Origin: a virus | Taxonomy: Duplodnaviria; Heunggongvirae; Uroviricota; Caudoviricetes | Length of the DNA: 25,289 nt | Direction: 5' to 3' (one strand) | Virus record (IMG/VR): IMGVR_UViG_2531839265_000001 | Location: 1-25,289 of that record | Part shown: positions 13,038 through 20,765 of the stretch, piece after piece | Layout of the letters: each line of letters opens with the position of its first letter | Numbering within the stretch: position 1 is the first letter of the stretch | Translations under genes and position numbers: made by a program | The notes under the pieces: generated by a model | What the model was told of the DNA's origin: nothing | The model's database searches: none | Seen by the model: only the letters and a program-made list of their open reading frames with translations

Positions 13038-13193
13038 TTACTTCTCAGATTCGTAGTCCACGAAGACAGCAACCTCCGTCTGGCCGGTTCGGATTCGTAC
13101 CTCGCAGAGGTCTTTCCTCGTTACCAGTGCCGTCACTATGACGGTTAAACAGATGACGATCAGGGCGATTAACATCGCCTTTTGCTGCTTCAT
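13038..13193 (-). CDS. hok: Hok/Gef-family type I toxin (51 aa)
   Basis: MKQQKAMLIALIVICLTVIVTALVTRKDLCEVRIRTGQTEVAVFVDYESEK has the Hok TM segment and CE.R motif. AGGAG RBS before the ATG at 13193. A 9-bp perfect hairpin at 13002-13023 follows the stop. Confidence 0.9.
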   Translation of the reverse strand: MKQQKAMLIALIVICLTVIVTALVTRKDLCEVRIRTGQTEVAVFVDYESEK

Positions 13194-13530
13194 AGCCTGC
13201 TTCTCCTTGCCTTTCGACACGTAAGAGGCTAACCTACATTTGTGAGACGTAGATTGGGCCTCAGATTAATGTTAAGCGTCCTGCAAGACGCGTAATGTTA
13301 ACTGGGGCTTTTCTCTGTTTGCCTTACAGTGGCATGCCCGAGGCAGACAGCCTCAAGCACCCGCAGCAATCTTACCGACACCGATAAGAAAACGCTATTT
13401 TTATTGCCAGCACCATCTATCCAGGCTAATTTATCTGCGTCAGAACGGCGCAATGCGCTCGCCTGAGATACGTTTACTTGCCATGGTAACAACAGATAAC
13501 GGCAATTGTTGTTTCTGTTTTGTTTCCTTC

Positions 13531-18136: not shown

Positions 18137-18659
18137 ACGAACCCCAGACAGATATTTGTTTATCTGCAAAGTAATGTTGGTATTGCTGACGATACGCGTG
18201 CTTGAAAGCAATAGCTTTTTCTATAAGCTCGTCAGTCTCACGTTCCACAACAGCTGGATCCGCAAAAAGCAGCCCGGACTCCACCACATCGCCATATTCT
18301 TTGTTTAACCCGGCGATCATGTACGTAATGCTTTTTCCGTCAGTAATTTCACAATACAACCTGAAATCGCTGATCCGGATAGCCTCCATAATTGCCGGAA
18401 TCAGCGCCGTGAATTTTTCCCGCTTATCCCTGGTGTCGATAGCTTTCCAGCGTTCAAATATTTTCACCCGGTTAACGCCCAGTGCCCGTTGATCAACCGC
18501 GCCATCATCAAACGTGACGCGTTGAACATCAATGTTCGGGCGTTCTTTCAGAGCCCAGAATGCTTCCGTGATTAATATCGTCGCCTGCTCCTGTGTCATT
18601 CCTAGTCGGCATACCCAGGTATCCAGAGCCTCACAAACCTGTTCAGGGGTGATTTTCAT
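18108..18659 (-). CDS. hypothetical protein (183 aa) at the cII position downstream of dicC
   Basis: Track ORF; ATG at 18659 overlaps the last codons of dicC. Confidence 0.45.
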   Translation of the reverse strand: MKITPEQVCEALDTWVCRLGMTQEQATILITEAFWALKERPNIDVQRVTFDDGAVDQRALGVNRVKIFERWKAIDTRDKREKFTALIPAIMEAIRISDFRLYCEITDGKSITYMIAGLNKEYGDVVESGLLFADPAVVERETDELIEKAIAFKHAYRQQYQHYFADKQISVWGSYEYRCTTMG

Positions 18660-18873
18660 TGTTCAACCGCCCCGCCCGCTTTGCCTTACGATATTCGTCA
18701 TAAACTTTTGGGTCGTACTGAAGTTCCCCGCCGGATGCCTCTTGCAGGCGCATCGCGCGACCTTCAGGAACTAGATCCCCTTTCCAGCTATAAAGCGAAG
18801 CCAAACGAATACCAGCAGCTTGTGCAAGTTTTGTTTTTGAACCGAAATACAAAAGCGCGTCAGTTTTAAGCAT
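18643..18873 (-). CDS. dicC: Cro-like repressor DicC
   Basis: MLKTDALLYFGSKTKLAQAAGIRLASLYSWKGDLVPEGRAMRLQEASGGELQYDPKVYDEYRK... matches remembered E. coli DicC; divergent from dicA. Confidence 0.8.
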   Translation of the reverse strand: MLKTDALLYFGSKTKLAQAAGIRLASLYSWKGDLVPEGRAMRLQEASGGELQYDPKVYDEYRKAKRAGRLNNENHP

Positions 18874-18956: not shown

Positions 18957-19363
18957 ATGGATACAAAAATTTAACCATTGGCGAACGCATTAGATATCGC
19001 CGAAAAAACCTCAAATACACCCAAAGGTCTCTTGCTAAAGCCTTGAAAATTTCTCATGTGTCGGTTTCACAATGGGAACGGGATGATAGCGAACCTACAG
19101 GGAAGAATCTTTTTGCACTTAGCAATGTACTGCAGTGCTCGCCAACATGGATTCTATTTGGCGATGAAGACAAGCAACCATCACCACCTATTGAGGATCC
19201 AGTTACTTTATCCCCCAAAGAACACGAGCTCCTTGAACTTTTTAATGCATTGCCTGAATCAGAACAGGACGCTCAGCTCACCGAGATGCGCGCCCGAGTA
19301 AAAAATTTCAACAAACTCTTTGAAGAATTATTAAAAGCCCGTCAACGAACAAACAAAAGATAA
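18957..19363 (+). CDS. dicA: CI-like repressor DicA (HTH_XRE), N-terminus broken by a 1-nt frameshift in an A5 run at 18965-18969
   Basis: Track ORF 19043..19363 plus in-frame upstream text ...NLTIGERIRYRRKNLKYTQRSLAKALKISHVSVSQWERDDSEPTGKNLFALSNVLQCSPTWILFGDED... matches DicA. ATG at 18957 reads MDTKI-stop as given; one extra A gives MDTKNLTIGER.... Confidence 0.8.
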
Positions 19364-19529: not shown

Positions 19530-19682
19530 ATGGATACTATCGATCTTGGCAACAACGAATCTCTGGTGTACGGCGTGTTTCCCAACCAGGACGGCACATT
19601 CACCGCGATGACGTATACCAAAAGCAAAACGTTTAAAACCGAATCTGGCGCGCGTCGCTGGTTAGCCAGAAACACTGACTGA
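19530..19682 (+). CDS. ydfA: YdfA-like small protein (50 aa)
   Basis: GAGGT RBS then ATG: MDTIDLGNNESLVYGVFPNQDGTFTAMTYTKSKTFKTESGARRWLARNTD. Confidence 0.55.
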   Translation: MDTIDLGNNESLVYGVFPNQDGTFTAMTYTKSKTFKTESGARRWLARNTD

Positions 19683-19693
19683 TGAGGTTGGCG

Positions 19694-19900
19694 ATGGAAT
19701 TTAAAGATTTACCTCCAGACACTCAGAAAATCGCCGCAGAAACACTGAAATCTCTCATTTTGGACGGGGGGACAGAAAAGGTAGAGCCAGCTAAAAAAAA
19801 CTGGCTCAAGAAATCAGAGAAGCCTTTATTGCTCTTTATCAGTCTTCTCCATAGCGGCTTGTTTTTCTTCTTTCAATATATTGCGAATTGTAATAACTGA
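19694..19900 (+). CDS. ydfB: YdfB-like small protein; ORF extends to 68 aa, the 3' third overlapping a convergent minus-strand gene
   Basis: GAGG RBS then MEFKDLPPDTQKIAAETLKSLILDGGTEKVEPAKKNWLKKSEKP.... Confidence 0.45.
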   Translation: MEFKDLPPDTQKIAAETLKSLILDGGTEKVEPAKKNWLKKSEKPLLLFISLLHSGLFFFFQYIANCNN

Positions 19901-20011
19901 ATTGGCCGCCTCTGAAGGGGATGACATTTTGCCAGCCCGAATTAACTCAACTGTTAAGTTCAAAGCTGCAACAGATGGATAGGTAAATGGGTTAATTAAC
20001 TTGTCTGACAT
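19826..20011 (-). CDS. small protein (61 aa) with strong RBS, convergent with and overlapping the ydfB-like ORF (possibly YdfC-like)
   Basis: GGAGGA RBS, then MSDKLINPFTYPSVAALNLTVELIRAGKMSSPSEAANSVITIRNILKEEKQAAMEKTDKEQ. ATG at 20011 chosen over the track GTG at 20083. Confidence 0.5.
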   Translation of the reverse strand: MSDKLINPFTYPSVAALNLTVELIRAGKMSSPSEAANSVITIRNILKEEKQAAMEKTDKEQ

Positions 20012-20334
20012 TTTATCCTCCATTGAGGTTACTGGTTGAGAATGGAGACCACACGTGACAGCGTGTTGTCGTGCGCCGGACACGGATAAGAATCCGGCAC
20101 TGACAGTTTACTGAAAGGATATATCCCTGAAAAGTCAGGGCATAACGCGAAAGCGCACGGCGGAGGTGTCTTTTCCTTAGAAGGCTTGTCGTTAGATTTC
20201 TTCGATTGTGCGCTTCCGGTTGTGGCACTCCGCGAAATGGCGCGGCGGTAAGTATGGCGGGGTTATTCCTTCCCCGTTGAGGACACCGGGTTGTCAGGTT
20301 GACCATACGCTTAAGTGACACCCCCGCTGCAACA

Positions 20335-20400
20335 ACCCATGTTGATTACCTTTTGGCGGGTATCCGTTTTTGTTTTCCCTTGTGATACCCGCCCTTTTTA
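20335..20400 (+). ncRNA. dicF: DicF-like small RNA (terminator hairpin 20355-20393 plus T-run)
   Basis: Sits between ydfB/C and dicB as in Qin. TTGGCGGGTATC...GATACCCGCCCTTTTT parallels the remembered K-12 DicF 3' end, and the flanking AAAGTGAATTTTGTGATG text matches the K-12 dicF-dicB spacer as I recall it. 5' end unknown. Confidence 0.4.
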
Positions 20401-20582
20401 AAGTGAATTTTGTGATGCGGTGAATGCGGCTCAGCGCACGCGGAACAGTTAAAAAGGCCAGTTGGCTTCCGTATTGGTTCTTATGGGTGGGTTCTCTGTA
20501 TCCGGCGTTAATTGTTAACTGGTTAACGTCACCTGGAGGCACCAGGCACCGTATCACAAAATTCATTGTTGAGGACGCGATA

Positions 20583-20765
20583 ATGGAAACGTTATTACCA
20601 AACGTTAATACGTCTGAAGGTTGTTTTGAAATTGGTGTCAGAATCAGTAACCCTGTATTTACTGAAGATGCCATTAATAAGAGAAAACACGAACGGGAGC
20701 TATTAAATCAAATATGCATTGTTTCAATGCTGGCCCGTTTACGCCTGATGCAAAAAGGACGCTGA
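20583..20765 (+). CDS. dicB: cell-division inhibitor DicB
   Basis: GAGGA RBS then METLLPNVNTSEGCFEIGVRISNPVFTEDAINKRKHERELLNQICIVSMLARLRLMQKGR, nearly identical to remembered E. coli DicB. Confidence 0.85.
   Translation: METLLPNVNTSEGCFEIGVRISNPVFTEDAINKRKHERELLNQICIVSMLARLRLMQKGR

What the first reader, a model, noticed from the sequence alone, without database searches (positions are those of the whole stretch)
19826..20011. Well-initiated small gene convergent with and overlapping the 3' end of the ydfB-like ORF
A 61-aa minus-strand ORF with a GGAGGA RBS runs antisense into the early-left operon, overlapping the last about 25 codons of the plus-strand ydfB-like frame. Either the ydfB-like ORF is really shorter (K-12 YdfB is about 42 aa as I recall) and its tail is a chance frame, or the two are mutually antisense and could regulate each other.
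Basis: seen in the sequence. Interest (0 to 1): 0.35.

Follow-up and report, generated by a model that had tools for sequence, protein, structure and literature searches.

The report
Small antisense prophage gene, real
The 61-codon reverse-strand ORF is a real, conserved small prophage gene of unknown function sitting head-on inside the phage early operon, while the striking 25-codon overlap with its neighbour exists only in this sequence, because the neighbour carries a 2-base frameshift.

Summary
The minus-strand ORF 19826-20011 (61 aa, GGAGGA 4 nt before the ATG) is there as described. It is a real gene. Homologues of 59-61 aa at 46-63% identity occur in Enterobacter and metagenomic prophages. 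dN/dS is 0.09-0.14 in its frame and at least 0.84 in four of the five other frames; the mirror antisense frame gives 0.15-0.23.

The plus-strand neighbour is not YdfB-like. It is a 52-aa phrog_9419 protein. In this window alone it carries A8 instead of A6 at 19793-19800. That frameshift creates the 25-codon overlap. The normal overlap is 29 nt, and a 23-29 nt tail-to-tail overlap recurs in five other lineages.

The gene lies antisense inside the DicA-controlled early-left (dicBF-type) operon. It has a structured leader whose third hairpin pairs with the Shine-Dalgarno sequence, and a hairpin just after its stop. The same leader and ATG precede four unrelated small ORFs (61, 64, 69 and 80 aa) and match in at least 777 of 5426 complete E. 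coli genomes. K-12 Qin keeps only a relic of the leader.

No match explains the function in Pfam, NCBIfam, PADLOC, PDB or Foldseek. This is an ordinary but uncharacterised accessory small gene, and modestly interesting.

The parts
19826..20011 (-). Coding sequence of a 61-aa small protein (identical to RefSeq WP_001305873.1, 'hypothetical protein'). The predicted fold is a helical hairpin.
   Evidence: PGAP annotates the identical protein. Homologues of 59-61 aa at 46-63% identity appear. dN/dS between E. coli and Enterobacter copies is about 0.14 or lower (synonymous sites saturated in one pair), and 0.09 within Enterobacter, against 0.84 or more in the other frames except the mirror antisense frame. 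The AF2 model has pLDDT 82.8 with helices 12-25 and 32-59.
20016..20021 (-). Shine-Dalgarno sequence GGAGGA, 4 nt upstream of the ATG.
   Evidence: Read directly from the sequence. It is identical in 125 related copies, but those were selected by a pattern that includes it.
20017..20048 (-). Leader hairpin 3. The anti-SD UCUCCAUU (20048-20041) pairs with AAUGGAGG (20024-20017) and so occludes the Shine-Dalgarno sequence.
   Evidence: The minus-strand RNA fold forms it (z = -2.37), while the plus-strand fold does not (z = -0.72). The CUCCAU/AUGGAG stem is kept in Enterobacter-type leaders although the loops differ in sequence and length. Two 5'-arm variants stay paired on the minus-strand RNA (C-G to U.G, and U.G to C-G). 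No compensatory double changes were seen.
20050..20066 (-). Leader hairpin 2 (ACACG / CGUGU).
   Evidence: Predicted. Variants show the series C-G, then U.G, then U-A (ACAUG/CGUGU and ACAUG/CAUGU) and loop inversions. The hairpin is broken in the leader of the 64-aa cassette, so it is not essential everywhere.
20073..20100 (-). Leader hairpin 1 (GUGCCGGAU ... GUCCGGCGC), probably the 5' end of the mRNA.
   Evidence: Predicted. It is conserved in E. coli, in Enterobacter-type loci and in K-12 Qin.
20105..20133 (-). Candidate sigma-70 promoter: -35 TTTTCA (20133-20128), a 17-nt spacer, then -10 TAAACT (20110-20105). The start site inferred from this is about 20098-20101.
   Evidence: It comes from my own hexamer scan and is not reported by the tool's stricter scan. 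A -10-like hexamer ends 6-7 nt before hairpin 1 in five different upstream contexts: TAAACT, TGaTATCAT, TGtTAGCAT, TAAAAT and TGgTAAACT. This is inferred, not shown.
19784..19807 (-). Terminator-like hairpin GAGCCAG-loop-CUGGCUC, 18 nt after the minus ORF stop and followed by UACCUUUUCU. It lies inside the neighbour's coding sequence (codons E-P-x-x-x-L-A).
   Evidence: The terminator scan reports it in the window and at the same place in L146, but not in L145. The fold has z = -2.98. In six lineages 95.8% of cells are paired, and two single-sided changes give G.U on the minus strand. Covariation is not significant, and the stem is also constrained by the codons it encodes.
19694..19900 (+). 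Neighbouring early-left gene (phrog_9419 family, normally 52 aa), frameshifted in this window. After codon 35 the frame is aberrant.
   Evidence: PHROG match E 1.3e-21 for the 52-aa form. PGAP annotates the 52-aa form in relatives. Alignment. The window's 68-aa product is unique among about 150 copies. dN/dS of the 52-aa form is 0.23-0.27.
19793..19800 (.). Poly-A tract, A8 here and A6 in all 37 relatives. It causes the frameshift and forms the loop of the terminator-like hairpin.
19826..19854 (.). The ancestral 29-nt tail-to-tail overlap of the two coding sequences. It encodes ...LYQSSP* on the plus strand and ...TDKEQ* on the minus strand. The ancestral plus-strand stop is TAG 19852-19854.
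   Evidence: Equivalent overlaps of 23-29 nt occur in L145, L146, L150, L151 and L152.

Best explanation
The minus-strand ORF is a genuine small-protein gene that appears to be expressed on its own signals. It is nested antisense inside the early-left operon of a Qin/dicBF-type lambdoid prophage. That operon runs repressor, ydfA-like gene, 52-aa gene, then a DicF-like RNA, dicB, DUF1482 and an exonuclease.

Shown here:
- The gene encodes a conserved protein of about 60 aa, predicted to be a helical hairpin, under strong purifying selection.
- It sits tail-to-tail with a conserved 52-aa protein domain. The overlap is 23-29 nt in six lineages, counting this window's E. coli lineage (29 nt in its unframeshifted relatives).
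- It occupies a slot where a conserved leader, ribosome-binding site and ATG are followed by any of four unrelated small ORFs.
- The 25-codon overlap in this window is a secondary effect of an A6-to-A8 frameshift, or a homopolymer sequencing error, in the neighbour.

Inferred, not shown:
- Transcription starts at a weak sigma-70 promoter just upstream of a 5' hairpin, at about 20098-20101.
- Translation is gated by a hairpin that pairs the Shine-Dalgarno sequence.
- The mRNA ends at the GAGCCAG/CUGGCUC hairpin inside the neighbour's coding sequence.
- Like other prophage accessory genes with their own signals, it is probably made in the lysogen while DicA keeps the early-left operon off.
- The protein probably works by binding another protein.
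- Its head-on transcription and complementary RNA would also oppose leaky read-through towards the toxic dicF-like RNA and dicB, and would be switched off in turn when the operon fires.
For: - ORF, ribosome-binding site and coordinates.
- RefSeq annotates the identical protein as a hypothetical protein.
- Diverged homologues of the same length share the invariant core LT-ELIRAGK...AA...I-IR..L.
- dN/dS is about 0.14 or lower between E. coli and Enterobacter copies, and 0.09 within Enterobacter. Four of the five other frames give 0.84-15.7; the mirror antisense frame gives 0.15-0.23.
- The same convergent arrangement lies next to the repressor in the early-left operon in Enterobacter roggenkampii and in metagenomic or sequencing-run contigs.
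- The shared leader and ATG precede four ORF families of 61, 64, 69 and 80 aa.
- The 69-aa family has dN/dS 0.23 in its own frame.
- At least 777 of 5426 complete E. coli genomes match the leader and start region.
- Leader folding and its conserved stems.
- Terminator-like hairpin.
- Frameshift in the neighbour.
- The early-left (dicBF) transcript starts at dicBp upstream of ydfA and is repressed by DicA in K-12: PMC10448788.
Against: - No transcript, start-site or ribosome-profiling data were available, so the promoter is only a -10-like hexamer at a fixed distance. The tool's promoter scan does not report it.
- The leader stems are almost invariant, so there is no compensatory covariation. 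Hairpin 2 is broken in one cassette family.
- Homologues with a second, different leader (L150, L154) show no obvious Shine-Dalgarno occlusion.
- The terminator-like hairpin lacks a T-rich tail in L145, L150 and L151, and its stem is also constrained by the neighbour's E-P...L-A codons.
- The gene is dispensable. There are frameshifted copies (P0006 on 19 contigs, and P0005), a deletion of its 5' end (L014), and complete absence from K-12.
- Only 10 of 5426 complete E. coli genomes carry this particular cassette.
- Function is wholly unknown. Pfam, NCBIfam, PADLOC, PDB sequence search and Foldseek against PDB and BFVD gave nothing.
Confidence: 0.75

Rival explanations
1. The main product is the RNA, not the protein. 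In this reading the minus-strand transcript is an antisense regulator of the early-left (dicBF-type) operon, acting by transcriptional interference and by RNase III cleavage of the duplex. The ORF is secondary, or serves only to stabilise the RNA.
For: The gene is fully embedded antisense in the operon in every lineage examined. The 3' overlap and the hairpin inside the neighbour's coding sequence are conserved. Four unrelated ORFs share one leader, which would fit a role for the act of transcription rather than for any one protein. RNase III already processes the plus-strand dicF precursor in K-12 (PMC10448788).
Against: The protein sequence itself is under strong purifying selection across genera. 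pS is 0.66-0.82 against pN 0.14-0.23, and the length is conserved. The 69-aa sister ORF is likewise constrained. An RNA-only function would not conserve amino acids while synonymous sites saturate. The two roles are not mutually exclusive.
Confidence: 0.15
2. The 61-aa protein and the 52-aa neighbour form a functional pair, such as a toxin-antitoxin-like or inhibitor-target module. Their tail-to-tail overlap would couple their expression.
For: The 61-aa family has the 52-aa domain as its convergent partner in six of the seven lineages examined. This holds even where that domain is the C-terminus of a 118-aa protein (L150). Both are small, helical, hydrophilic proteins under purifying selection.
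Against: L154 has the small gene with an unrelated 85-aa neighbour and no overlap. The 52-aa domain also occurs without this small gene, as the N-terminus of 112-, 186- and 212-aa proteins next to other cassettes. In this window the partner is frameshifted while the small gene is intact. Neither protein matches a PADLOC model or has a membrane segment. The two are not paralogues (hhalign probability 0.3%).
Confidence: 0.08
3. The ORF is a chance open frame on the antisense strand, or an annotation artefact.
For: It has no family annotation. Within E. coli the substitutions do not discriminate between frames: dN/dS is 0.36 in the ORF frame and 0.31-0.45 in three others. Frameshifted copies exist.
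Against: There are homologues at 46-63% identity with the same length and an invariant core. The cross-genus dN/dS of 0.09-0.14 is specific to this frame and its mirror. The strong ribosome-binding site and start are conserved. It matches two PHROG families at E 1e-7 and 4e-6.
Confidence: 0.02

Closest known systems
Qin prophage dicBF operon of E. coli K-12 (dicA; ydfA-ydfB-ydfC-dicF-dicB-ydfD)
   Same: The backbone and gene order match: a DicC-like and a DicA-like regulator, YdfA (DUF1391, E 4e-29), the structured dicF precursor leader, DicB (E 1.5e-37), DUF1482 and an exonuclease. In K-12 the operon is transcribed from dicBp upstream of ydfA and is repressed by DicA (PMC10448788).
   Different: K-12 has ydfB and ydfC, both on the plus strand and both unrelated to either ORF here. 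K-12 has no minus-strand gene. It retains only hairpins 1 and 2 and the 5' arm of hairpin 3 of the leader. The window also carries a variant RNA in the DicF position.
Lambdoid prophage 'morons': accessory genes with their own promoter and terminator inserted between conserved phage genes (concept recalled from my own knowledge of the phage literature)
   Same: It is a small extra gene, present or absent or swapped between otherwise similar prophages. It has a terminator-like hairpin and a possible promoter of its own.
   Different: It is oriented head-on inside the early-left operon and overlaps its neighbour's 3' end. The promoter and lysogenic expression are not demonstrated. The same leader serves four different ORFs.
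Sister cassettes behind the same leader: 69-aa phrog_4274 (O157:H7 prophages, WP_001133037.1), 64-aa phrog_4987 (HUSEC2011, WP_001295058.1) and an 80-aa zinc-ribbon-like ORF
   Same: They share the leader, Shine-Dalgarno sequence, ATG, position and strand. All are annotated only as hypothetical proteins. The 69-aa family is under purifying selection.
   Different: The protein sequences are unrelated and fall in different PHROGs. The plus-strand neighbour differs too: it is 212 or 112 aa rather than 52 aa, and in the 69-aa loci the two coding sequences abut without overlapping.
Convergent, 3'-overlapping type I toxin-antitoxin modules of prophages (for example txpA/RatA and bsrG/SR4 of Bacillus subtilis; recalled from my own knowledge)
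   Same: Both are convergent transcription units with complementary 3' ends in a prophage, and both have a 5' leader that sequesters the Shine-Dalgarno sequence.
   Different: Both partners here encode conserved hydrophilic proteins. The 61-aa product has no membrane segment (maximum Kyte-Doolittle score over 19 residues is 0.95). No non-coding antitoxin RNA is evident.
Phage antisense RNAs against early genes (lambda oop against cII, P22 sar against ant; recalled from my own knowledge)
   Same: A short transcript runs opposite to an early operon next to the immunity region.
   Different: Those RNAs are non-coding. Here the transcript carries a conserved protein-coding frame.

Membership tests
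YdfB (E. coli K-12 b1572), as claimed for the plus-strand ORF | Sequence similarity to K-12 YdfB (42 aa, MDFDTIMEKAYEEYF...) | tested here: not met
   BLASTP gives no alignment at E <= 100. Relatives such as L002 carry a true ydfB in addition to this gene. The ORF matches phrog_9419 instead.
   K-12 ydfC is on the plus strand. BLASTP gives no alignment.
Protein-coding gene (general test) | Purifying selection specific to the reading frame across diverged homologues | tested here: met
   dN/dS is 0.09-0.14 in frame. It is 0.84-15.7 in the other frames except the mirror antisense frame, which gives 0.15-0.23. Length is conserved at 59-61 aa with 17 invariant columns.
PHROG families phrog_17494 and phrog_27767 (unknown function) | Significant profile match | tested here: met
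   E 1.1e-07 over residues 1-49 and E 3.6e-06 over residues 4-41. Neither family has an annotated function.
Prophage moron (autonomous accessory transcription unit) | Own terminator directly after the gene | tested here: inconclusive
   A hairpin with a T-rich tail is found in the window and in L146, and a strong T8 tail in L152. The tail is absent in L145, L150 and L151.
Prophage moron (autonomous accessory transcription unit) | Own promoter | tested here: inconclusive
   There are only weak -35/-10 matches. A -10-like hexamer sits at a fixed distance from hairpin 1 in five contexts. The tool's scan does not report it.
Prophage moron (autonomous accessory transcription unit) | Presence/absence or replacement between otherwise similar prophages | tested here: met
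   The gene is absent from K-12 Qin. Four alternative ORFs occupy the same slot. This cassette is in 10 of 5426 genomes, while the leader and start region match in at least 777.
Prophage moron (autonomous accessory transcription unit) | Expression from the repressed prophage | not testable with these tools
   No transcriptome of a strain carrying the cassette was available. The K-12 start-site paper I tried to consult is not held.
Type I toxin-antitoxin (convergent 3'-overlap type) | Small hydrophobic membrane toxin | tested here: not met
   GRAVY is -0.33, the maximum 19-residue hydropathy is 0.95, and 16 of 61 residues are charged. The model is an amphipathic helical hairpin.
Known anti-phage defence proteins (PADLOC-DB) | Profile match to a defence-system component | tested here: not met
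   No family at E <= 0.1 for the 61-, 64- or 69-aa ORFs, or for the 170/172-aa inserted gene.

The most novel reading that the evidence does not exclude
The conserved leader with its occluded ribosome-binding site, the interchangeable small ORFs and the tail-to-tail overlap with the 52-aa domain could together form an undescribed antisense-embedded cassette slot in dicBF-type prophages. Its head-on transcription unit would act as a lysogeny-side brake on the toxic dicF/dicB arm. The swappable small proteins would be exclusion or counter-defence effectors that are switched off when the early-left operon fires.
Probability: 0.12. Interest if true: 0.55.

Novelty: new member of a known kind. Interest (0 to 1): 0.3.

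Why it matters
The dicBF operon is the best-studied example of toxic cargo on a cryptic prophage, and its published maps are based on K-12, which has lost this gene. At least 777 of 5426 complete E. coli genomes, O157:H7 and O104:H4 strains among them, match the leader and start of a conserved head-on small gene between the promoter-proximal genes and the dicF precursor. If that gene is transcribed in lysogens, it would be an unrecognised layer of control over DicF and DicB. It would also be a source of four uncharacterised small-protein families. For genome annotation there are two lessons: the short antisense ORF is real, and the long overlap is a frameshift artefact of the neighbour.

Tried and rejected
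- **Known K-12 genes.** I tested ydfB for the plus ORF and ydfC for the minus ORF. Neither gives any alignment, and ydfC is on the other strand.
- **Inverted paralogues.** The 52-aa and 61-aa proteins looked alike by eye (IAAETLKSLIL against VAALNLTVELI). hhalign gives a probability of 0.3%, so this is rejected.
- **Type I toxin.** Rejected, because there is no hydrophobic segment.
- **Family and structure look-ups.** All were empty or non-significant:
  - Pfam;
  - NCBIfam;
  - PADLOC;
  - PDB by sequence and by profile;
  - Foldseek against PDB and BFVD, best E above 1.
- **Collections with no match.**
  - tblastn of the 61-aa and 69-aa proteins against the GenBank phage collection found nothing.
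  - A scan of GTDB species-representative genomes confirmed no relative.
  - IMG/VR returned only near-identical copies.
- **Rfam.** No family covers the ORF or its leader. A PhrS match on the minus strand (17.8 bits against a gathering score of 37) is noise.
- **Within-E. coli substitution counts.** There are 8 synonymous and 10 non-synonymous changes, too few to tell frames apart. The test only became decisive with the Enterobacter homologues.
- **Covariation.** The leader and the terminator hairpin have conserved stems but no significant covariation.
- **Literature.** There is no mention of the RefSeq accessions or of a convergent gene in the dicBF locus. The K-12 start-site paper I tried to consult is not held.

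Full report
**Observation**

The window carries a minus-strand ORF from the ATG at 20011-20009 to the TAA at 19828-19826. It encodes 61 aa: MSDKLINPFTYPSVAALNLTVELIRAGKMSSPSEAANSVITIRNILKEEKQAAMEKTDKEQ. GGAGGA lies 4 nt upstream of the ATG. The plus-strand ORF 19682-19900 overlaps it by 75 nt.

**Context**

The region is the immunity and early-left part of a Qin/dicBF-type lambdoid prophage. In order it holds:
- a DicC-like gene (18643-18873, minus);
- a DicA-like helix-turn-helix gene (about 19043-19363, plus);
- a YdfA/DUF1391 gene (19530-19682, E 4e-29);
- the plus ORF in question;
- the minus ORF;
- about 560 nt homologous to the K-12 dicF precursor;
- DicB (20583-20765, E 1.5e-37);
- DUF1482 and an 823-aa exonuclease.

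**The plus ORF is not ydfB**

K-12 YdfB and YdfC are both on the plus strand and are unrelated to either ORF here. RefSeq relatives annotate a 52-aa hypothetical protein, MEFKDLPPDTQKIAAETLKSLILDGGTEKVEPAKKLAQEIREAFIALYQSSP. It matches phrog_9419 at E 1.3e-21.

The alignment shows that the window has A8 at 19793-19800, where all relatives have A6. Across all loci fetched the count is 37 of 37 with A6 and only the window with A8. The window's 68-aa product is unique among about 150 copies of the gene family.

The 33-residue tail that overlaps the minus ORF is therefore a frameshift product, or a homopolymer sequencing error. The ancestral stop is TAG 19852-19854, and the ancestral overlap is 29 nt.

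**The minus ORF is a real gene**

PGAP annotates the identical protein, WP_001305873.1, as a hypothetical protein. Within E. coli the cassette is rare: 10 of 5426 complete genomes. It is also nearly invariant there, so substitution counts cannot tell frames apart.

An exhaustive HMMER search and a profile search found diverged homologues of 59-61 aa at 46-63% identity. They share an invariant core, A..LT.ELIRAGK......AA...I.IR..L.

| Comparison | Nucleotide identity | pS | pN | dN/dS in frame |
|---|---|---|---|---|
| E. coli against Enterobacter | 64-66% | 0.70-0.82 | 0.23 | about 0.14 or lower (synonymous sites saturated in one pair) |
| Within Enterobacter | 74% | 0.66 | 0.14 | 0.09 |

The other frames give 0.84-15.7. 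The exception is the mirror antisense frame, which shares third codon positions and gives 0.15-0.23. The 52-aa neighbour is also constrained, at 0.23-0.27.

**The arrangement is conserved**

In an Enterobacter roggenkampii genome and in several metagenomic or sequencing-run contigs, the small gene again lies head-on in the early-left operon, just beyond the first gene after the CI-like repressor. In five of these six lineages it overlaps the 3' end of the same 52-aa domain by 23-29 nt. In L150 that domain is the C-terminus of a 118-aa protein. In L154 the neighbour is unrelated and there is no overlap.

**A slot with interchangeable ORFs**

The 41 nt before the ATG are GGTCTCCATTCTCAACCAGTAACCTCAATGGAGGATAAA on the minus strand. 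This stretch and the first codons match in at least 777 of 5426 complete E. coli genomes. In those genomes and in IMG/VR contigs, the same leader and ATG are followed by four unrelated ORFs:
- 61 aa (this one);
- 69 aa (phrog_4274, in O157:H7);
- 64 aa (phrog_4987, in HUSEC2011);
- 80 aa (zinc-ribbon-like).

The 69-aa family has dN/dS 0.23 in its own frame. Degraded copies also occur, with frameshifts and a 17-aa truncation. K-12 Qin keeps leader hairpins 1 and 2 and half of hairpin 3, but ydfC abuts where the ORF would be.

**Signals**

Folded as minus-strand RNA, the leader forms three hairpins, and the third pairs UCUCCAUU with AAUGGAGG, the Shine-Dalgarno sequence (z = -2.37). The plus strand does not form it (z = -0.72). 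The CUCCAU/AUGGAG stem and hairpin 1 are retained in Enterobacter-type leaders with different loops, but there is no compensatory change. Single-sided variants give G.U pairs on the minus strand.

A second leader type (L150, L154) lacks obvious occlusion of the ribosome-binding site.

A -10-like hexamer ends 6-7 nt before hairpin 1 in five different upstream contexts. In the window it is TAAACT at 20110-20105, with TTTTCA 17 nt upstream. The stricter tool scan does not report it, so the promoter is inferred.

Eighteen nt after the stop, GAGCCAG-loop-CUGGCUC forms a hairpin on the minus strand (z = -2.98). The terminator scan reports it in the window and in L146. It is present in six lineages with 95.8% of cells paired, but covariation is not significant. 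The T-rich tail is missing in three lineages, and the stem is also constrained by the neighbour's E-P...L-A codons.

**Function**

The AlphaFold2 model is a helical hairpin with pLDDT 82.8. It has no membrane segment. Nothing matched in Pfam, NCBIfam, PADLOC, PDB or Foldseek. Two PHROG families of unknown function match at E 1e-7 and 4e-6. The 52-aa and 61-aa proteins are not paralogues.

My best account is an accessory small protein that is probably expressed in the lysogen. Its head-on transcription unit necessarily gives RNA complementary to any early-left transcript. Only the gene's reality, its conservation, its arrangement and the frameshift are shown. Promoter use, translational gating, termination and any antisense effect are inference.

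**Verdict**

This is an ordinary kind of object, a small uncharacterised prophage accessory gene. It is solidly real, and it sits in a conserved and slightly unusual antisense-nested, tail-overlapping arrangement. The feature that made it stand out, the 25-codon overlap, is a private frameshift in the neighbour.

Noticed in passing
window 20340-20400 (+): The DicF position holds a different sRNA-like element: TTGATTACCTTTTGGCGGGTATCCGTTTTTGTTTTCCCTTGTGATACCCGCCCTTTTT, with a terminator hairpin GGCGGGTATC/GATACCCGCC followed by T5. Its flanks are K-12-like (the dicF precursor leader and the dicB 5' UTR). Rfam gives no DicF hit even at E <= 10. Full-length copies occur unannotated in 216 of 5426 complete E. 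coli genomes. This may be a DicF paralogue with a different seed.
   Followed up: partly
L008 2362-2874 and L012 1655-2245 (the same strand as the small ORF): In some prophages a 170-196-aa gene is inserted just upstream of the small ORF's leader hairpin 1. It belongs to phrog_1244 and has a coiled coil plus a C-terminal CxxC...CxxC motif. It has no Pfam or PADLOC match. The sequence just upstream of it (CCTGCTTTTTAACCAC[G/A]TCAGGCGAGGTGG) also precedes the small-ORF homologues in L150 and L154.
   Followed up: partly
window 19694-19853 and related loci: The plus-strand gene family has a shared 52-aa N-terminal domain (MEFKDLPP..IAAETL...AF..LYQ) followed by nothing, or by C-terminal extensions that give 112-, 186- and 212-aa forms. 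The form varies with the minus-strand cassette next to it.
   Followed up: partly
window 19801-19900 (+): The frameshifted tail of the plus ORF creates a hydrophobic, membrane-like stretch by chance (PLLLFISLLHSGLFFFFQYI, maximum 19-residue hydropathy 1.88) that is absent from the normal protein.
   Followed up: no
window 20050-20066: Leader hairpin 2 occurs in two orientations among relatives (loop CTGTCA or TGACAG). It also shows the series C-G, U.G, U-A in its stem.
   Followed up: partly
window 13188-13362 (-) and 5613-5919 (-): There is a sok antitoxin RNA (112.5 bits), which implies a hok/sok module. There is also a cluster of three tRNA genes elsewhere in the prophage.
   Followed up: no
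window 20392-20615 (+): A sub-threshold match to Salmonella sRNA STnc100 (34 bits against a gathering score of 47, E 2.7e-05) covers the dicB 5' untranslated region.
   Followed up: no
L001 787-1265 and L008 3748-4229: Close relatives of this prophage carry a RelB/PaaA2-ParE/RelE type II toxin-antitoxin pair between the DicA-like gene and ydfA. The window lacks it.
   Followed up: no
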